Positions 1-34,477 of a stretch of DNA of 64,000 nt are shown piece by piece. A program made the position numbers and the translations under genes. The stretch covers positions 22,880,001-22,944,000 of the forward strand of contig NC_058368.1 of assembly GCF_018350175.1 (NCBI RefSeq), written 5' to 3'. The first letter of the stretch is position 1. The number at the start of each line of letters is the position of its first letter. The notes under the pieces were generated by a model. That model saw only the letters and a program-made list of their open reading frames with translations, was not told the origin of the DNA and ran no database searches. This DNA is from Felis catus. Lineage: Eukaryota.

Positions 1-1910
1 GGATACAAAATTAATGTATAGAAATCGGTTGCATTCTTATACACTAACAATGAAGCAACAGAAAGACAAATAAAAAAACTGATCCCATTCACAACTGTAC
101 CAAGAATCATAAAATACCTAGGAATAAACCTAACCAAAGATGTAAAAGATCTGTATGCTGAAAACTACAGAAAGCTTATGAAAGAAATTGAAGAAGATAA
201 AAAGAAATGGAAAAATATTCCATGCTCATGGATTAGAAGAATAAATATTGTTAAAATGTCAATCCTACCCAAAGCTATCTACATGACATTCAATGCAATC
301 CCAATAAAAATTGCACCAGCATCCTTCCCGAAGCTAGAACAAGCAATCCTAAAATTTCTATGGAACCACAAAAAACCCCAAACAGCCAAAGTAATATTGA
401 AGAAGAAGACCAAAGTGGGAGGCATCACAATATCAGACTTTAGCCTGTACTACAAAGCTGTAATCATCAAGACAGCATGGTATTGGCACAAAAACAGACA
501 CACAGACCAATGGAATAGAATAGAAACCTCAGAACTAGACCCACAAAAGTATGGCCAACCAATCTTTGACAAAGCAGGAAAGAATATCCAACGGAAAAAA
601 GACAGTCTCTTTAACAAATGGTGGTGGGAGAACTGGACAACAGCATGCAGAAGGATGAAACTAGACCACTTTCTTACACCATTCACAACAATAAGCTCAA
701 CATGGATGAAGGACCTGAATGTGAGACAGGAAACCATCAAAACCCTAGAGGAGAAAGCAGGATAAAACCTCTCTGACCTCAGCCGCATCAATTTCTTACT
801 TGACACATCTCCAAAGGCAAGAGAATTAAAAGCAAAAATGAACTATTGGGACCTCATCAAAGATAAACAGCTTCTGCACTGCAAAGGAAACAACCAACAA
901 AACTAAAAGGCAATCGACGGAATGGGAAAAGATATTTGCAAATGACATCGGACAAAGGGCTAGTATCCAAAATCTATAAAGAACTCACCAAACTCCACAC
1001 CCAAAAAACAAATAATCCAGTGAAGAAATGGGCAGAAGACATAAATAGACACTTCTCTAAAGAAGACATCTGGATGGCCAACAGGCACATGAAAAGATGC
1101 TCAACGTCACTCATCATCAGGGAAATACAAATCAAAACCACACTGAGATATCACCTCATGCCGGTCAGAGAGGCTAAAATGAACAAATCAGGAGACTATA
1201 GATGCTGGAGAGGATGTGGAGAAATGGGAACCCTCTTGCACTGTTGGTGGGAATGCAAACTGGTGCAGCTGCTCTGGAAAACAGTGTGGAGGTTCCTCAA
1301 AAAATTAAAAATAGATCTACCCTATGACTCAGCAATAACACTGCTAGGAATTTATCCAAGGGATACAGGAGTGCTGATGCATAGGGGCACTTGCACCCCA
1401 ATGTTTACAGCAGCACTTTCAACAATAGCCAAATTATGGAAACAGCCTAAATGTCTATCAACTGATTAATGGATAAAGAAATTGTGGTTTATATATACAA
1501 TGGAATACTACTTGGCAATGAGAAAGAATGAAATCTGGCCTTTTGTAGCAATGTGGATGGAACTGGAGAGTGTTATGCTAAGTGAAATAAGTCAGGCAGA
1601 GAAAGACAGATACCATATGTTTTCACTCACATGTGGATCCTGAGAAACTCAACAGAAGACTGGGGGGAGGAGAAGGAGGGGAAAAATTACAGAGAGGGAA
1701 GGAGGCAAACCATAAGAGACTCTTAAATACTGAAAATAAACTGAGGGTTGATGGGGGGTGGGGAGGAGGGGAAAGTGGGTGATGGGCATTGAGGAGGGCA
1801 CCTGTTGGGATGATCACTGGGTGTTGTAGTGAAACCGTTTTGACAATAAATTTCATATTAATAAAATACACAAGATTTCAAAGATTTAGAATGGAAAAAT
1901 AAAAAAAAAA
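1..1910 (+). mobile_element. Felid-type L1, 3' part of ORF2 (frameshifted) plus 3'UTR and A tail; runs off the window start
   Basis: ORFs 178-765 and 936-1469 closely resemble the C-terminal ORF2 at 28050-29350; G-rich 3'UTR, AATAAA, A-rich tail. Confidence 0.95.
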
Positions 1911-22482: not shown

Positions 22483-23811
22483 GGCCTCAGCAATCACACA
22501 ACAAAAAGAAATAAAAGGCATCCAAAGGGGCAAGGAAGAAGTCAAACTTTCACTATTTGCAGATGACATGATACTCTATGTAGAAAACCTGAAAGATTCT
22601 GCCAAAAAATTACCAGAATACACAAATTCAGCAAAGTAGCAGGAAATAAAATCAATATGTAGAAATCTGTTGCATTTTTATACAGCAATAACGAAGCAGC
22701 AGAAAAAGAAATCAAGGAATCAATCCCATTTGCAACTGCACCAAAAACAGTAAGATTCCTAGGAATAAACCTAACTAAAGAGGTGAAAGATCTATACTCC
22801 GAAAACCATAGAACACTTATGAAAGAAACAGAAGATGACACAAAGAAGTGGAAAAGCATTCCATGCTCATGGATTAGAACGAACATTGTTAAAATGTCTA
22901 TACTACAGAAACCAATCTACACATTTAACGCAATCCCTATAAAAATACCACCAGAGGGGCGCCTGGGTGGCTCAGTCAGTTAAGTGTCCAACTTCAGCTC
23001 AGGTCATGATCTCACACTCCGTGAGTTCAAGCCCCGCATCGGGCTCTGTGCTGACAGCTTAGAGCCTGGAGCCTGCTTCAGGTTCTGTGTCTCCCCCTCT
23101 CTCTCTGCCCCTCCCCTGTTCATGCTCTGTCTCTGTCTCAAAAGTAAAACTAAAAACATTTTAAAAAAAAATTAAAAAAAAAATACCACCAGAATTTTTC
23201 ACAAAGCTAGAACAAACAACGCTAAAATTTTTATGGAGCCACAAAAGACCCCAAATAGCCAAAGCAATGTTGAAAAAGAAAACCAAAGCAGGAGGCATCA
23301 CAATCCCAGACTTCAAGCTGTATTACAAAGCTGTAATCATCAAGACAGTATGGCACTGGCACAAAAACAGACACATAGATTAATGGAACAGAATAGAGAA
23401 CCCAGAAATGGATCCACAACTATACAGTCAATTAATCTTCAACAAAGCAGGAAAGACTATCCAATGGGGAAAAACACAGTCTCTTCAACAAATGGTGTTC
23501 AGAAAACTGGATGGGAACATGCAGAAGAATGAAACTGGACCACTTTCTTACACAAAAATTCAAAACGGATGAAAGACCTAAATGTGATACAGGAAACCAT
23601 CAAAATCCTAGAGAACCTCTTGGGAACTATTGGGACCGAAAAAAAAGCTTCTGCACAGCAAAGGAAACAATCAACAAAACTAAAAGGCAGCCTACAGAAT
23701 GGGACAAGATATCTGCAATGACATTATCTGATAAAGGGTTAGTAACCAACATTTACAAAGAACTTATCAAACTCAGCACCCAAAAAACCACCTAGTTAAG
23801 AAATGGGCAGA
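22483..23811 (+). mobile_element. Host L1, left part: 5'-truncated carnivore L1 ORF2, split by the full-length L1
   Basis: [11 protein letters not shown] motif in ORF 22436-22639; sequence resumes colinearly at 30000 after the duplicated aagaaatgggcaga. Confidence 0.92.
22956..23178 (+). mobile_element. Felid SINE inserted in host L1
   Basis: Perfect 15-bp TSD aaaaataccaccaga at 22941-22955 and 23179-23193. Confidence 0.95.
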
Positions 23812-24742
23812 TATAGTAAGCGGCAAGATGGCAGCTTAGGAGGACGCTGGGCTCACCGCGCGTCCTGCTGATCACTTAGATTCCACCTACACCTGCCTAA
23901 ATAACCCAGAAAACCGCCAGAGGATTAGCAGAACGGAGTCGCTGGAGCCAAACGCAGACGAGAGGCCCACGGAAGAGGGTAGGAAGGGCGGCGAGGCGGT
24001 GCGCGCTCCACGGACTGGCGGGAGGGAGCTGGGGCGGAGGGGCGGCTCGCCGGCCAAGCAGAGACCCCGAGTCTGGCTTGCAAAAGCGGAGGGGCCTGAC
24101 GGACTGTGTTCCCACAACAAGCGCGACTTAGCGTCTGGGAGGTCATAAGTTAACAGCTCTGCTCGGAAAGCGGGAAGGCTGGAGGACAAAGGGAGGGAGA
24201 GCTGCTGAGCCCCCTGACAACAGAGCTCAGTTTGGTGGGGAACAAAGGCGCTCGCCAGCGCCATCTCTCCTGCCCATCCCCCAGCCAAAATCCCAAAGAG
24301 AACCAGTTCCTGCCAGGGAACTTGCTCGCTCCGCGCAAACACCCAACTCTGTGCTTCTGCGGAGCCAAACCTCCGGCAGCGGATCTGACTCCCTCCCACT
24401 GCCACAGGGCCCCTCCTGAAGAGGATCACCTAAGGAGAAGCGATCTAAGCCTGCCCCTCCTGCCCCTGTGCACCTTGCCTACCCACCCCAGCTAATACGC
24501 CAGATCCCCAGCATCACAAGCCTGGCAGTGTGCAAGTAGCCCAGACGGGCCACACCACCCCACAGTGAATCCCACCCCTAGGAGAGGGGAAGAGAAGGCG
24601 CACACCAGTCTGACTGTGGCCCCAGCGGTGGGCTGGGGGCAGACATCAGGTCTGACTGCGGCCCTGCCCACCAATTCCAGTTATACACCACAACACAGGG
24701 GAAGTGCCCTGCAGGTCCTCACCACGCCAGGGACTATCCAAA
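23812..24742 (+). promoter_or_regulatory. L1 5'UTR / internal Pol II promoter, CpG-island-like; YY1-type motif CAAGATGGC at 23824-23832
   Basis: High GC and many CpGs in an otherwise AT-rich, CpG-poor window; YY1 core near the 5' end as in other mammalian L1s. Confidence 0.8.
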
Positions 24743-25637
24743 ATGACCAAGCGGAAGAATTCCCCTCAGAAGAATCTCCAGGAAATAACAACAGCTAATG
24801 AACTGATCAAAAAGGATTTAAATAATATAACAGAAAGTGAATTTAGAATAATAGTCATAAAATTAATCGCTGGGCTTGAAAACAGTATACAGGACAGCAG
24901 AGAATCTCTTGCTACAGAGATCAAGGGACTAAGGAACAGTCACGAGGAGCTGAAAAACACTTTAAACGAAATGCATAACAAAATGGAAACCACCACAGCT
25001 CGGCTTGAAGAGGCAGAGGAGAGAATAGGTGAACTAGAAGATAAAGTTATGGAAAAAGAGGAAGCTGAGAAAAAGAGAGATAAAAAAAATCCAGGAGTAT
25101 GAGGGGAAAATTAGAGAACTAAGTGATACACTAAAAAGAAATAATATACGTATAATTGGTATCCCAGAGGAGGAAGAGAGAGGGAAAGGTGCTGAAGGGG
25201 TACTTGAAGAAATAATAGCTGAGAACTTCCCTGAACTGGGGAAGGAAAAAGGCATTGAAATCCAAGAGGCACAGAGAACTCCCTTCAGACGTAACTTGAA
25301 TCGATCTTCTGCACGACATATCATAGTGAAACTGGCAAAATACAAGGATAAAGACAAAATTCTGAAAGCAGCAAGGGGTAAACGTGCCCTCACATATAAA
25401 GGGAGACCTATAAGACTCGTGACTGATCTCTCTTTTGAAACTTGGCAGGCCAGAAAGAATTGGCACGAGATTTTCAGGGTGCTAGACAGAAAAAATATGC
25501 AGCCGAGAATCCTTTATCCAGCAAGTCTGTCATTTAGAATAGAAGGAGAGATAAAGGTCTTCCCAAACAAACAAAAACTGAAGGAATTTGTCACCACTAA
25601 ACCAGCCCTACAAGAGATCCTAAGGGGGACCCTGTGA
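24743..25637 (+). pseudogene. L1 ORF1p (about 297 aa if repaired), single +1 frameshift in an A8 run at 25082-25089
   Basis: MTKRKN...coiled coil in one frame; RHIIVKL, ARKNW and YPASLS motifs in the +1 frame; removing one A joins them with no other stop seen. Confidence 0.9.
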
Positions 25638-25687
25638 GACAAAGTCCCAGAGACATCACTACAAGCATAAAACATACAGACATCACA

Positions 25688-28600
25688 ATGACTCTAAACC
25701 CATATCTTTCTATAATAACACTGAATGTAAATGGATTAAATGTGCCAACCAAAAGACACAGGGTATCAGAATGGATAAAAAAACAAGACCCATCTATTTG
25801 CTGTCTACAAGAGACTCATTTTAGACCTGAGGACACCTTTAGATTGAGAGTGAGGGGATGGAGAACTATTTATCATGCTACTGGAAGCCAAAAGAAAGCT
25901 GGAGTAGCCATACTTATATCAGACAAACTAGACTTTAAATTAAAGGCTGTAACAAGAGATGAAGAAGGACATTATATAATAGTTACAGGGTCTATCCATC
26001 AGGAAGAGCTAACAATTATAAATGTCTATGCGCCGAATACCGGAGCCCCCAAATATATAAGACAATTACTCATAAACATAAGCAACCTTATTGATAAGAA
26101 TGTGGTAATTGCAGGGGACTTTAACACCCCACTTACAGAAATGGACAGATCATCTAGACACACGGTCAATAAAGAAACAAGGGCCCTGAATGAGACATTG
26201 GATCGGATGGACTTGACAGATATATTTAGAACTCTGCATCCCAAAGCAACAGAATATACTTTCTTCTCGAGTGCACATGGAACATTCTCCAAGATAGATC
26301 ATATACTGGGTCACAAAACAGCCCTTCATAAGTTTACAAGAATTGAAATTATACCATGCATACTTTCAGACCACAATGCTATGAAGCTTGAAATCAACCA
26401 CAGGAAAAAGTCTGGAAAACCTCCAAAGGCATGGAGGTTAAAGAACACCCTACTAACGAATGAGTGGGTCAACCAGGCAATTAGAGAAGAAATTAAAAAA
26501 TATATGGAAACAAACAAAAATGAAAATACAACAATCCAAACGCTTTGGGACGCAGCGAAGGCAGTCCTGAGAGGAAAATACATTGCAATCCAGGCCTATC
26601 TCAAGAAACAAGAAAAATCCCAAATACAAAATCTAACAGCACACCTAAAGGAACTAGAAGCAGAACAGCAAAGGCAGCCTAAACCCAGCAGAAGAAGAGA
26701 AATAATAAAGATCAGAGCAGAAATAAACAATATAGAATCTAAAAAAACTGTAGAGCAGATCAACGAAACCAAGAGTTGGTTTTTTGAAAAAATAAACAAA
26801 ATTGACAAACCTCTAGCCAGGCTTCTCAAAAAGAAAAGGGAAATGACCCAAATAGATAAAATCATGAATGAAAATGGAATTATTACAACCAATCCCTCAG
26901 AGATACAAACAATTATCAGGGAATACTATGAACAATTATATGCCAACAAATTGGACAACCTGGAAGAAATGGACAAATTCCTGAACACCCACACTCTTCC
27001 AAAACTCAACCAGGAGGAAATAGAAAGCTTGAACAGACCCATAACCAGCGAAGACATTGAATCGGTTATCAAAAATCTCCCAACAAATAAGAGTCCAGGA
27101 CCAGATGGCTTCCCAGGGGAGTTCTACCAGACGTTTAAAGCAGAGATAATACCTATCCTTCTCAAGCTATTCCAAGAAATAGAAAGGGAAGGAAAACTTC
27201 CAGACTCATTCTATGAAGCCAGTATTACTTTGATTCCTAAACCAGACAGAGACCCAGTAAAAAAAGAGAACTACAGGCCAATATCCCTGATGAATATGGA
27301 TGCAAAAATTCTCAATAAGATACTAGCAAATCGAATTCAACGGCATATAAAAAGAATTATTCACCATGATCAAGTGGGATTCATTCCTGGGATGCAGGGC
27401 CGGTTCAACATTCGCAAATCAATCAACGTGATATGTCACATTAACAAAAAAAAAGAGAAGAACCATATGATCCTGTCAATCGATGCAGAAAAGGCCTTTG
27501 ACAAAATCCAGCACCCTTTCTTAATAAAAGCCCTTGAGAAAGTCGGGATAGAAGGAACATACTTAAAGATCATAAAAGCCATTTATGAAAAGCCCACAGC
27601 TAACATCATCCTCAACGGGGAAAAACTGAGAGCTTTTTCCCTGAGATCAGGAACACGACAAGGATGCCCACTCTCACCGCTGTTGTTTAACATAGTGCTG
27701 GAAGTTCTAGCATCAGCAATCAGACAACAAAAGGAAATCAAAGGCATCAAAATTGGCAAAGATGAAGTCAAGCTTTCGCTTTTTGCAGATGACATGATAT
27801 TATACATGGAAAATCAGATAGACTCCACCAAAAGTCTACTAGAACTGATACATGAATTCAGCAAAGTTGCAGGATACAAAATCAATGTACAGAAATCAGT
27901 TGCATTCTTATACACTAACAATGAAGCAACAGAAAGACAAATAAAGAAACTGATCCCATTCACAATTGCACCAAGAAGCATAAAATACCTAGGAATAAAT
28001 CTAACCAAAGATGTAAAGGATCTGTATGCTGAAAACTATAGAAAGCTTATGAAGGAAATTGAAGAAGATTTAAAGAAATGGAAAGACATTCCCTGCTCAT
28101 GGATTGGAAAAATAAATATTGTCAAAATGTCAATACTACCCAAAGCTATCTACACATTCAATGCAATCCCAATCAAAATTGCACCAGCATTCTTCTCGAA
28201 ACTAGAACAAGCAATCCTAAAATTCATATGGAACCACAAAAGGCCCCGAATAGCCAAAGGAATTTTGAAGAAGAAGACCAAAGCAGGAGGCATCACAATC
28301 CCAGACTTTAGCCTCTACTACAAAGCTGTCATCATCAAGACAGCATGGTATTGGCACAAAAACAGACACATAGACCAATGGAATAGAATAGAAACCCCAG
28401 AACTAGACCCACAAACGTATGGCCAACTCATCTTTGACAAAGCAGGAAAGAACATCCAATGGAAAAAAGACAGCCTCTTTAACAAATGGTGCTGGAAGAA
28501 CTGGACAGCAACATGCAGAAGGTTGAAACTAGACCACTTTCTCACACCACTCACAAAAATAAACTCAAAATGGATAAAGGACCTAAATGTGAGACAGGAA

Positions 28601-29755
28601 ACCATCAAAACCTTAGAGGAGAAAGCAGGAAAAGACCTCTCTGACCTCAGCCGTAGCAATCTCTTACTCGACACATCCCCAAAGGCAAGGGAATTAAAAG
28701 CAAAAGTGAATTACTGGGACCTTATGAAGATAAAAAGCTTCTGCACAGCAAAGGAAACAACCAACAAAACTAAAAGGCAACCAACGGAATGGGAAAAGAT
28801 ATTCGCAAATGACATATCGGACAAAGGGCTAGTATCCAAAATCTATAAAGAGCTCACCAAACTCCACACCCGAAAAACAAATAACCCAGTGAAGAAATGG
28901 GCAGAAAACATGAATAGACACTTCTCTAAAGAAGACATCCGGATGGCCAAGAGGCACATGAAAAGATGTTCAGCGTCGCTCCTTATCAGGGAAATACAAA
29001 TCAAAACCACACTCAGGTATCACCTCACGCCAGTCAGAGTGGCCAAAATGAACAAATCAGGAGACTATAGATGCTGGAGAGGATGTGGAGAAACGGGAAC
29101 CCTCTTGCACTGTTGGTGGGAATGCAAATTGGTGCAGCCGCTCTGGAAAGCAGTGTGGAGGTTCCTCAGAAAATTAAAAATAGACCTACCCTATGACCCA
29201 GCAATAGCACTGCTAGGAATTTATCCAAGGGATACAGGAGTACTGATGCATAGGGCCACTTGTACCCCAATGTTCATAGCAGCACTCTCAACAATAGCCA
29301 AATTATGGAAAGAGCCTAAATGTCCATCAACTGATGAATGGATAAAGAAATTGTGGTTTATATACACAATGGAGTACTACGTGGCAATGAGAAAAAATGA
29401 AATATGGCCTTTTGTAGCAACGTGGATGGAACTGGAGAGTGTGATGCTAAGTGAAATAAGTCATACAGATGGGGTGCCTGGGTGGCGCAGTCGGTTAAGC
29501 GTCCGACTTCAGCCAGGTCACGATCTCACAGTCCGTGAGTTCGAGCCCCGCGTCAGGCTCTGGGCTGATGGCTCAGAGCCTGGAGCCTGTTTCCGATTCT
29601 GTGCCTCCCTCTCTCTCTGCCCCTCCCCCATTCATGCTCTGTCTCTCTCTGTCCCAAAAATAAATAAAAACGTTGAAAAAAAAATTAAAAAAAAAAAAAT
29701 AAGTCATACAGAGAAAGACAGATACCATATGGTTTCACTCTTATGTGGACCCTGA
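25688..29755 (+). CDS. L1 ORF2p (endonuclease, reverse transcriptase, CCHC domain), 1355 aa including an 81-aa in-frame SINE-derived insert
   Basis: Open frame from ATG 25688; motifs [37 protein letters not shown] and [18 protein letters not shown] all present. Confidence 0.93.
29470..29696 (+). mobile_element. Young felid SINE inserted in frame within L1 ORF2
   Basis: Perfect 16-bp TSD aaataagtcatacaga at 29454-29469 and 29697-29712; net insertion 243 bp. Confidence 0.97.
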
Positions 29756-30448
29756 GAAATTAACAGGAACCCATGGGGGAGGGGAAGGAAAAAAAAAAAC
29801 AAGTTAGAGTGGGAGAGAGCCAAAGCATAAGAGACTCTCAAAAACTGAGAACAAACTGAGGGTTGATGGGGGGTGGGAGGGAGGAGAGGGTGGGTGATGG
29901 GTATTGAGGAGGGCACCTTTTGGGATGAGCACTGGGTGCTGTATGGAAACCAATTTGTCAATAAATTTCATATTAAAAAAAAAAAAAGAAATGGGCAGAA
30001 AACATGAATAGGCACTTCTCCAAAGAAGACATCCAGATGGCTAACAGACACATGAAAAGATGCTCAACATCATTCATCATCACGGAAATGCGTATCAAAA
30101 CCACATTAAGATACCATTTCACACCAGTGAGAGTGGCTAACATTAACAACTCAGGAAACGACAGATGTTGGCAAGGATGTGGACAAAGGGGAATCCTCTT
30201 GCACTGTTGGTGGGAATGCAAACTGGTGCAGCCACTCTGAAAAACAGTATGTAGTTCCTCAAAAAGTTAAAAACAGAAATACCCCACAACCCAGCAATTG
30301 CACTGTTAGGTATTTACCCAAAGGATACAAAATAGATTCAAAGGGATACATGCACCCAAATGTTCCCAGCAGCATTATCAACAATAGCCAAACTATGGAG
30401 ATAACCCAATGTCCATCTACTGATGAATGGATACAGAAGATGTGGTAT

Positions 30449-30453
30449 ACACA

Positions 30454-30498
<45 letters not shown>
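30449..30498. repeat. (CA)n microsatellite within L1
   Basis: Dinucleotide run with one interruption. Confidence 0.95.
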
Positions 30499-30501
<3 letters not shown>

Positions 30502-34297: not shown

Positions 34298-34477
34298 GGG
34301 ACGCCTGGGTGGCTCAGTTGGTTAAGCGTCTGACTTCAGCTCAGGTCACAATCTCCCGGTTCGTGGGTTCGAGTCCCTCACTGGCCTCTCTACTGTCACC
34401 ACAGAGCCCACTTCATATCCTCTGTCCCCCTCTGTCTGTCCCTCCCGTCCCCCTCTCAAAAATAAACATTTTTAAAA
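34298..34477 (+). mobile_element. Carnivore/felid SINE
   Basis: Head gggacgcctgggtggctcag, CT tract, aaaataaacatt. Confidence 0.9.

What the first reader, a model, noticed from the sequence alone, without database searches (positions are those of the whole stretch)
29454..29755. SINE inserted in frame inside an otherwise open L1 ORF2, giving a 1355-aa ORF2p-SINE chimera
Seen: a complete young SINE plus its 16-bp TSD adds exactly 243 bp (81 codons) with no stop. ORF2 reads ...SEISHT-[[10 protein letters not shown]...[11 protein letters not shown]][14 protein letters not shown]. The insert lies 14 residues from the C-terminus, downstream of the EN, RT and CCHC motifs. Known: these SINEs are mobilised by L1 ORF2p, and ORF2p alone can drive SINE retrotransposition (shown for Alu). 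Inference: the locus could still encode a working ORF2p with a SINE-derived tail, or the L1+SINE could have moved as one unit. The SINE also puts AATAAA and an A-run inside the ORF, which could yield stop-less or poly-Lys-stalled mRNA. In-frame insertion is not very improbable by chance, since this SINE subfamily is open in this frame.
Basis: partly seen in the sequence, partly recalled or inferred. Interest (0 to 1): 0.75.

Follow-up and report, generated by a model that had tools for sequence, protein, structure and literature searches.

The report
SINE landed inside a young L1
A short mobile element (SINE) jumped into the last few codons of a young cat-type LINE-1 copy and by chance kept its reading frame open; it is a one-off nested insertion, not a new kind of element.

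Summary
A full-length tRNA-derived SINE (29470-29696) sits between perfect 16-bp target-site duplications (29454-29469 and 29697-29712). It adds 243 bp, or 81 codons, without a stop. ORF2 therefore runs 25688-29755 (1355 aa), and the insert lies 14 codons before the stop.

The host is a full-length young L1 (23818-29987) with its own TSD. It is 98.7-99.4% identical to eight paralogs. Its ORF1 is frameshifted.

The evidence points to a private insertion that happened after the L1 arrived:
- The 5' junction 25-mer occurs once in the 2.43-Gb genome.
- The uninterrupted form of the site occurs 221 times.
- All eight fetched paralogs carry the empty site.

The open frame fits chance, roughly 7% per sense insertion. 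Of 20 sister SINE copies, 12 are open in this frame and none in the other two frames.

Whether the chimeric ORF2p works is untested, and four points weigh against it:
- The insert splits a tail conserved between cat and human.
- Private changes are mostly amino-acid-changing (11 codons against 4 silent).
- One private change, W572R, hits a tryptophan conserved in the RT region.
- The SINE adds AATAAA and an A13 run.

Read-level checks could not be run.

Side observation: six other L1 copies carry independent SINEs at the same L1 site.

Verdict: ordinary nested retrotransposon insertion, low interest.

The parts
23798..23811 (+). 5' copy of the L1's own target-site duplication (AAGAAATGGGCAGA), inside an old, degraded L1 fragment
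   Evidence: The same 14-mer recurs at 29986 directly after the L1 A-tail.
23812..23817 (+). Six extra bases (TATAGT) between the TSD and the L1 5' end
   Evidence: Alignments to all 6 full-length paralogs start at window 23818; these bases match neither the flank nor the paralogs.
23818..29987 (+). Full-length young L1: 5'UTR, ORF1, ORF2, 3'UTR and A13 tail, carrying the nested SINE
   Evidence: 98.7-99.4% identical to 8 paralogs; 6 of them align from 23818. 27 private substitutions in 5,889 ungapped columns, 0.46%. Poly(A) signal at 29960 and A-run at 29975-29987.
24743..25636 (+). ORF1, broken by a frameshift in a homopolymer A-run at 25082-25089. The ATG frame stops after 119 aa and the rest continues in another frame.
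   Evidence: Three-frame translation and ORF list. Paralogs have a 297-aa ORF1, and the A-run length differs by one base from 5 of 5 paralogs that carry the motif.
25688..29755 (+). ORF2 reading through the SINE: a 1355-aa chimeric ORF with EN, RT and CCHC motifs present
   Evidence: Aligns to human ORF2p 8uw3_A over residues 4-1259.
29454..29469 (+). 5' copy of the SINE's 16-bp TSD (AAATAAGTCATACAGA), native L1 sequence
   Evidence: Exact repeat 243 bp downstream. Paralogs have a single copy, seen as a 16-bp overlap of the two BLAST segments.
29470..29696 (+). Sense-oriented full-length tRNA-derived SINE. tRNA-like head at 29476-29560, CT-rich stretch at 29604-29618, two overlapping AATAAA from 29659, then an A-rich tail (A9, TT, and the A-run that begins at 29687).
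   Evidence: Of 40 scored copies (888 candidates), 3 are 99% identical and most of the rest 96-97%.
29697..29712 (+). 3' copy of the SINE's TSD
29713..29755 (+). Last 14 codons of ORF2 ([14 protein letters not shown]) plus the stop, displaced by the insert
   Evidence: This tail aligns to the end of human ORF2p and is conserved among the rows of alignment A1 that reach the C-terminus.
29756..29987 (+). L1 3'UTR, AATAAA at 29960, A13 tail at 29975-29987. The first TTTT after the SINE is at 29918.
29986..29999 (+). 3' copy of the L1 TSD; its first two A's merge with the A-tail

Best explanation
This is an incidental nested insertion. A young full-length L1 inserted at this locus, into an old L1 fragment, by ordinary target-primed reverse transcription. 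Later a young tRNA-derived carnivore-type SINE was inserted in the sense orientation by the same L1 machinery. It landed at an endonuclease-like site in the L1 (bottom strand TTATTT/C), 14 codons before the ORF2 stop, and made a 16-bp TSD. The SINE body is stop-free in one of its three frames. This copy entered in that frame with a total added length divisible by three, so ORF2 still reads through. That is chance, not design. The locus is one decaying L1 copy. ORF1 is frameshifted and ORF2 is accumulating substitutions in a neutral pattern. The SINE adds polyadenylation hexamers and an A13 tract that should lower any full-length product (inferred). Shown here: the anatomy, the uniqueness of the junction, the empty site in paralogs, and the frame statistics. 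Inferred: the order of events, the age (roughly 2-5 million years for the L1, using a recalled neutral rate), and the effects on mRNA and protein.
For: Anatomy and perfect 16/16 TSD. The 5' junction 25-mer occurs once in 2.43 Gb. The 3' junction 31-mer occurs once at 0 mismatches. The uninterrupted 39-mer of the same L1 subfamily occurs 221 times. All 8 of 8 fetched paralogs (98.7-99.4% identical) have the empty site with one copy of the 16-mer. In the 2-kb ORF2 search all 40 scored copies, of 2,130 candidates, are at least 99% identical, so the family is young. The SINE has 3 relatives at 99% identity. Frame statistics: 12 of 20 sister SINEs are open in the window's frame and 0 of 20 in either other frame. 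Six other L1 copies carry independent SINEs at the same site, with different TSDs, SINE variants and host L1 subfamilies. Their insert lengths mod 3 are 1, 0, 2, 1, 0, 1 and none reads through. This is what chance predicts. Decay of the host: ORF1 is frameshifted. There are 27 private substitutions in 5,889 columns. Of the 16 that lie in ORF2, 12 bases change 11 codons and 4 are silent. W572R is among them, where human ORF2p has GMQGWFN. An open ORF2 is common among young copies: 2 of 6 full-length paralogs have an intact 1274-aa ORF2.
Against: Only one assembly was examined. Polymorphism, a SINE-free allele and the true A-tail length therefore remain unchecked. The chimeric ORF still holds every catalytic motif checked. 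Human ORF2p truncated at residue 1262, one residue from the equivalent position, still makes cDNA in the LEAP assay (PMC13103738, passages). Some activity of a tail-disrupted protein is therefore not excluded. Only 7 of the 50 non-self near-matches to the 5' junction and 6 of the 12 to the 3' junction were fetched.
Confidence: 0.88

Rival explanations
1. Functional chimera. The locus makes an ORF2p with an 81-residue SINE-derived insert that keeps endonuclease and reverse-transcriptase activity and can mobilise SINEs in trans. It would be an 'ORF2-L1' type driver even though ORF1 is broken.
For: ORF2 is open and keeps the EN, RT and CCHC motifs. L1Base 2 recognises L1s with intact ORF2 and disrupted ORF1 as possible drivers of Alu (PMC5210629, passages). 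[quoted passage not shown] The 5'UTR is full length.
Against: The insert separates a tail conserved from cat to human from the C-terminal domain. Deleting that whole domain lowers TPRT and nicking (PMC10830416, section 9). Deleting residues 1211-1275 weakens the Cryptic:CTD contact (PMC13103738). The private W572R change lies in a conserved RT-region motif. The pattern of 11 changed codons against 4 silent changes shows no constraint. AATAAA and an in-frame A13 tract are expected to cut output: 12 A's lowered reporter output by 15-35% in E. coli (PMC5263891, passages). There are no expression data.
Confidence: 0.08
2. Composite element. The SINE entered the source L1 first, and L1+SINE was then copied to this locus as one unit.
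For: It cannot be excluded from one copy. A TSD inside the L1 would be carried along, so the internal TSD does not date the event relative to the L1's arrival here.
Against: No second copy of either junction exists in the assembly. Of the near-matches, the 7 fetched for the 5' junction and the 6 for the 3' junction are unrelated sites or independent events in older L1s. There are 221 empty-site copies.
Confidence: 0.03
3. The in-frame property is fragile or artefactual. The lengths of the A9 and A13 runs, and of the ORF1 A-run, could be miscalled in the assembly or could vary between alleles, so the 243-bp figure may not hold in the animal.
For: Homopolymer runs are the usual sites of assembly error and of length polymorphism (general knowledge). 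The ORF1 break is itself a one-base difference in an A-run.
Against: Nothing in the sequence suggests a misassembly: the TSDs are perfect and the flanks are colinear with paralogs. No reads could be laid.
Confidence: 0.1

Closest known systems
Nested retrotransposon insertions (a SINE inside a LINE-1), the ordinary product of L1-mediated target-primed reverse transcription
   Same: Sense-oriented SINE with an A-rich tail. Perfect 16-bp TSD beginning at an A-rich, endonuclease-like site. Empty site preserved in paralogs.
   Different: Nothing in kind. The only unusual point is that the host ORF2 stays open across the insert.
[quoted passage not shown]
   Same: Full-length element with a disrupted ORF1 and an ORF2 without stops.
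   Different: ORF2 here is not the native 1274-aa protein. It carries 81 foreign residues and 15 residue differences from both intact paralogs. L1Base 2 listed 1 intact L1 and 0 ORF2-L1s for the older cat assembly.
Human ORF2p C-terminal truncation 1262-delta (constructs of Christian et al. 2017, reused in PMC13103738)
   Same: The break falls at the equivalent place. Cat T1260|E1261 aligns to human residues 1261|1262 in 8uw3 numbering.
   Different: That construct deletes the tail. Here the tail is kept but moved 81 residues away. Only its LEAP result was seen. Its retrotransposition result is in a paper that is not held.
Can-type tRNA-derived SINEs of carnivores, with AATAAA and pol III terminator signals in the tail (PMC9599045, abstract and outline seen)
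   Same: tRNA-like head, CT-rich stretch, AATAAA, A-rich tail.
   Different: That paper treats canid subfamilies. The felid subfamily name is not established by any search here.

Membership tests
LINE-1 (L1), full-length copy | ORF2 with APE-type endonuclease and reverse transcriptase, homologous to mammalian L1 ORF2p | tested here: met
   Pfam PF03372 (E 1.6e-23) and PF00078 (E 9.9e-47). Aligns to human ORF2p 8uw3_A over residues 4-1259, E = 0.
LINE-1 (L1), full-length copy | 5' end coincides with that of other full-length copies; 3' poly(A) signal, A-tail and flanking TSD | tested here: met
   6 of 6 full-length paralogs align from window 23818. AATAAA at 29960, A13 tail, and the 14-bp TSD at 23798 and 29986.
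Retrotransposition-competent L1 (both ORFs intact) | Intact ORF1 (297 aa in paralogs) | tested here: not met
   ORF1 stops after 119 aa because of a frameshift in the A-run at 25082-25089.
Retrotransposition-competent L1 (both ORFs intact) | Native, uninterrupted ORF2 (1274 aa in paralogs) | tested here: not met
   Open, but 1355 aa with an 81-residue SINE-derived insert.
ORF2-L1 (L1Base 2 class: ORF2 intact, ORF1 disrupted) | ORF2 intact and able to act in trans | tested here: inconclusive
   No stop and all checked motifs present. However, there is an internal insert and a W572R change. Activity is not testable with these tools.
tRNA-derived carnivore SINE | tRNA-like head with pol III A and B boxes | tested here: met
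   ARAGORN finds a tRNA-like fold at 29476-29560. Box-like motifs lie at 29483 and 29539; the box consensus is recalled. Rfam's tRNA model gave no match at E up to 1.
tRNA-derived carnivore SINE | CT-rich region, AATAAA, A-rich tail, flanking TSD, many near-identical genomic copies | tested here: met
   40 of 888 candidates were scored, and apart from the window's own copy they are 96-99% identical.
Composite L1-SINE mobile unit | The same internal junction present at more than one locus | tested here: not met
   The junction 25-mer and 31-mer each occur once at 0 mismatches.

The most novel reading that the evidence does not exclude
The SINE-interrupted ORF2 is still translated into an active endonuclease/reverse transcriptase. 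An insert 14 residues from the end would then be tolerated, as the LEAP-positive human 1262-delta truncation hints. In that case an L1 copy disabled for its own spread (ORF1 broken) would survive as a trans-driver of the very SINE family that hit it. A weaker second point: the L1 site GTG|AAATAAGTCA may be a preferred landing site for SINEs, so that SINEs repeatedly disrupt the C-terminus of their own driver.
Probability: 0.08. Interest if true: 0.35.

Novelty: new member of a known kind. Interest (0 to 1): 0.14.

Why it matters
It matters little beyond annotation. ORF finders will report this locus as an intact or oversized ORF2, so it should be flagged as a SINE-interrupted ORF2 in an L1 with a broken ORF1, not counted as an active L1. 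Two small points have some wider use. First, this long-read felid assembly holds L1 copies with both ORFs intact (2 of the 6 full-length paralogs sampled), whereas L1Base 2 listed 1 for the older cat assembly. Second, one L1 site near the ORF2 stop has been hit independently by SINEs in at least seven L1 copies. That gives a natural set of C-terminal disruptions of ORF2p for anyone studying how much of the ORF2p C-terminal tail is needed.

Tried and rejected
1. Reads. The look-up of sequencing runs listed 24 runs, all kept as Logan contigs, with word shares of 0.62-0.84. No read evidence exists on A-tail length, a SINE-free allele or expression.

2. Structure. The C-terminal 214 residues of a SINE-free paralog were folded with a 34-row alignment. 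The model has mean pLDDT 67, pTM 0.32 and pLDDT below 50 in the tail. It is too poor to say whether the last 14 residues are part of the fold, so I ran no fold search and did not spend the second job.

3. Papers. Christian et al. 2017 (Genetics 205:1139) reports the retrotransposition phenotype of the 1262-delta truncation but is not held. A follow-up search found only PMC13103738, which gives its LEAP result. The trialanine scan preprint (10.1101/721357, passages) gave no text on the last residues, and its supplements are closed.

4. Hot-spot controls. The same gapped pattern design was run at two other L1 sites.
   - Control A lies 20 bp downstream and is not A-rich: 4 raw hits, 0 SINEs, in 13,285 motif copies. 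The target site has 7 SINE-bearing hits in 12,140. Fisher p = 0.006, or 0.012 without the window's own locus.
   - Control C is A-rich and upstream: 1 raw hit, 0 SINEs, in 3,455 copies. p = 0.36, which is uninformative.
   - Recurrent use of the site is shown. A true hot spot relative to other A-rich sites is not shown.

5. The search of earlier findings returned nothing, by place or by words.

6. An Rfam scan of the SINE at E up to 1 gave only three weak, unrelated matches.

Full report
**What is there**

The window lies in a 2.43-Gb, 71-contig animal genome. Its SINE and L1 types are those of a felid.

An ORF on the + strand runs 25688-29755 and encodes 1355 residues. It has an APE-type endonuclease at residues 10-229 and a reverse transcriptase at 516-772. 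It aligns to human L1 ORF2p (8uw3_A, 1275 aa) over residues 4-1259. The motifs QETH, GDFN, SKIDH, SDHN, FADD and the CCHC stretch are present.

The 16-mer AAATAAGTCATACAGA occurs at 29454 and 29697, 243 bases apart. Between the two copies lie 227 bases with these features:
- a tRNA-like head at 29476-29560 (ARAGORN);
- A- and B-box-like motifs;
- a CT-rich stretch;
- two overlapping AATAAA from 29659;
- an A-rich tail (A9, TT, then a 13-base A-run at 29687-29699 that runs into the TSD).

The inserted peptide is 81 residues. It follows T1260 and is followed by the 14 residues [14 protein letters not shown] and the stop.

**The host element**

Alignments to eight paralogs fetched from the same genome are 98.7-99.4% identical. 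For the six full-length ones, every alignment starts at window 23818.

The element ends in AATAAA (29960) and an A13 tail. It is flanked by a 14-bp TSD (23798 and 29986), with six extra bases at the 5' junction. It sits inside an old, degraded L1 fragment.

ORF1 is broken. The ATG frame stops after 119 residues, at a frameshift in an A-run at 25082-25089, and the rest of ORF1 continues in another frame. Paralogs have a 297-aa ORF1, and the run length differs by one base from all five paralogs that carry the motif.

Paralog ORF2 is 1274 aa and ends ...[20 protein letters not shown]. Two of the six full-length paralogs (L017, L022) have both ORFs intact.

**Private event or mobile composite**

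- The 5' junction 25-mer occurs once in the genome.
- At up to 3 mismatches there are 51 hits including the window's own. I fetched 7 of the other 50: all four with 2 mismatches and three with 3. None has the L1 sequence next to the SINE in this arrangement. The other 43 were judged only from the printed 25-mers. Each differs from the query at three positions, mostly in the L1-derived half. The other half is the very common start of the SINE.
- The 3' junction 31-mer occurs once at 0 mismatches.
- The uninterrupted form of the site, as a 39-mer of this L1 subfamily, occurs 221 times.
- All eight paralogs show the empty site with a single copy of the 16-mer.

The SINE is therefore private to this copy. 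Nothing indicates that L1+SINE moved as a unit.

**Age**

The window's L1 has 27 private substitutions in 5,889 ungapped columns (0.46%). The two intact paralogs have 0.15-0.17%. With a recalled mammalian neutral rate of about 1-2 x 10^-9 per site per year, this suggests a few million years. This is an inference.

For the SINE search, 40 of 888 candidates were scored. Three relatives are 99% identical and most of the rest 96-97%. The TSD is perfect, so the SINE is young, and it must be younger than the L1 insertion if it arrived at this locus.

**Is the open frame surprising**

Only one of the three sense frames of this SINE is stop-free. Among 20 close sister copies, 12 are open in that frame through the first 214 bases and none is open in the other two. 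The 8 closed ones carry a 2-base gap relative to the window's SINE, and in the printed tails the A-run between AAATAAATAA and CG is two bases shorter.

A sense insertion therefore keeps an ORF open with probability about 1/3 x 1/3 x 0.6, roughly 7%.

**The same L1 site in other copies**

A gapped pattern found 11 places. Seven of them, the window's own and six others, are SINEs inserted right after ATAAGTCA... in an L1.

The six others sit in older L1 subfamilies; for the three compared by BLAST (L002-L004) the L1 3' end is 82-83% identical to the window's. They carry different SINE variants, and their TSDs of 10-18 bp all begin at the same AAATAAG. This points to the same first-strand nick site (bottom strand TTATTT/C). 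One locus (L004) has two SINEs in tandem there.

Their added lengths mod 3 are 1, 0, 2, 1, 0, 1, and none reads through. That again fits chance.

The site motif occurs 12,140 times. Two control sites were tested with the same pattern design:
- A control site 20 bp downstream gave 0 SINEs in 13,285 copies. Fisher p = 0.006, or 0.012 without the window's own locus.
- An A-rich control gave 0 in 3,455 copies and is uninformative.

Recurrent use of the site is shown. A special hot spot is not.

**Could the chimeric protein work**

Points in favour:
- All checked catalytic motifs are present.
- ORF1-defective, ORF2-intact L1s are a recognised class of possible SINE drivers (PMC5210629, passages).
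- Human ORF2p truncated at 1262, 1249 or 1129 still makes cDNA in LEAP assays (PMC13103738, passages).
- The insertion point, cat T1260|E1261, aligns to human 1261|1262.

Points against:
- The displaced tail is conserved between cat and human, and among the rows of the 34-row mammalian alignment that reach the C-terminus.
- The C-terminal domain as a whole is needed for efficient TPRT and nicking (PMC10830416, section 9). It engages and melts target DNA (PMC7617806, passages).
- Removing residues 1211-1275 weakens its contact with the Cryptic region (PMC13103738).
- Of the 16 private substitutions in ORF2, 12 bases change 11 codons and 4 are silent, a neutral-looking ratio.
- The window's ORF2p differs from both intact paralogs at 15 residues. 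One is W572R, in the motif GMQGWFN that is shared with human.
- The SINE places AATAAA and an in-frame A13 tract (four consecutive AAA codons) inside the ORF. Tracts of 12 A's lowered reporter output by 15-35% in E. coli (PMC5263891, passages), so this would be a modest brake rather than a block.
- Premature polyadenylation at the SINE would give stop-less mRNA (inference).

An AlphaFold model of the isolated C-terminal domain was too poor to help. No read or RNA evidence could be obtained.

**Verdict**

This is an ordinary nested SINE-in-L1 insertion in a decaying young L1 copy. It is open in frame by chance, unique in the genome, and there is no sign that it spread. The residual novel reading, a still-active ORF2p with a SINE-derived insert, gets about 8%.

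Noticed in passing
L002 (G000:C1:168062311-168063741), L003 (C1:176457644-176459074), L004 (C15:104951937-104953367), L023 (C1:136599400-136600700), L024 (C16:107168600-107169900), L025 (C17:103707500-103708800): Six other, older L1 copies carry independent SINE insertions at the same L1 site. Their TSDs all start at AAATAAGTCA and are 10-18 bp long. L004 has two SINEs in tandem there. Counts: 7 of 12,140 motif copies against 0 of 13,285 at a neighbouring control site.
   Followed up: partly
L017 (G000:C46:30996700-31003300) and L022 (G000:C18:91479740-91486340): These two full-length paralogs have both ORFs open (ORF1 297 aa, ORF2 1274 aa) and only 0.15-0.17% private substitutions. The assembly therefore holds apparently intact young L1s, whereas L1Base 2 listed one for the older cat assembly.
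   Followed up: partly
window 27401 (ORF2 codon 572): A private T-to-C change turns a tryptophan into arginine in the motif GMQGWFN, which is shared by the cat paralogs and human ORF2p. It may impair the RT on its own.
   Followed up: partly
L003 positions about 680-1010 (reverse strand): Upstream of the SINE's TSD, the L1 sequence is in inverted orientation. This looks like a 5'-inverted (twin-priming-like) L1 whose junction lies next to the recurrent SINE site.
   Followed up: no
window 23798-23811, 28892-28905 and 29986-29999: The young L1 inserted into an old L1 fragment at the position homologous to its own ORF2 sequence. The 14-mer TSD also occurs inside the young element at 28892.
   Followed up: no
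window 34303-34387: The only Rfam hit at gathering score in the window is a tRNA (29.9 bits against a cut-off of 29). It could be the head of another SINE; I did not look at it.
   Followed up: no
window about 30448-30500: A (CA)n microsatellite lies inside the old L1 fragment downstream of the young L1.
   Followed up: no
G000:C37:43384847-43384871 and C37:43638760-43638784 (L008, L009): Two loci 254 kb apart give identical 25-mers and identical BLAST coordinates for their SINEs. This is probably a segmental duplication.
   Followed up: no
window 29470-29930: The SINE tail has no run of four T's, and the first TTTT downstream is at 29918 in the L1 3'UTR. A pol III transcript started in this SINE would therefore run about 220 bases into the L1 3' end (inference).
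   Followed up: no
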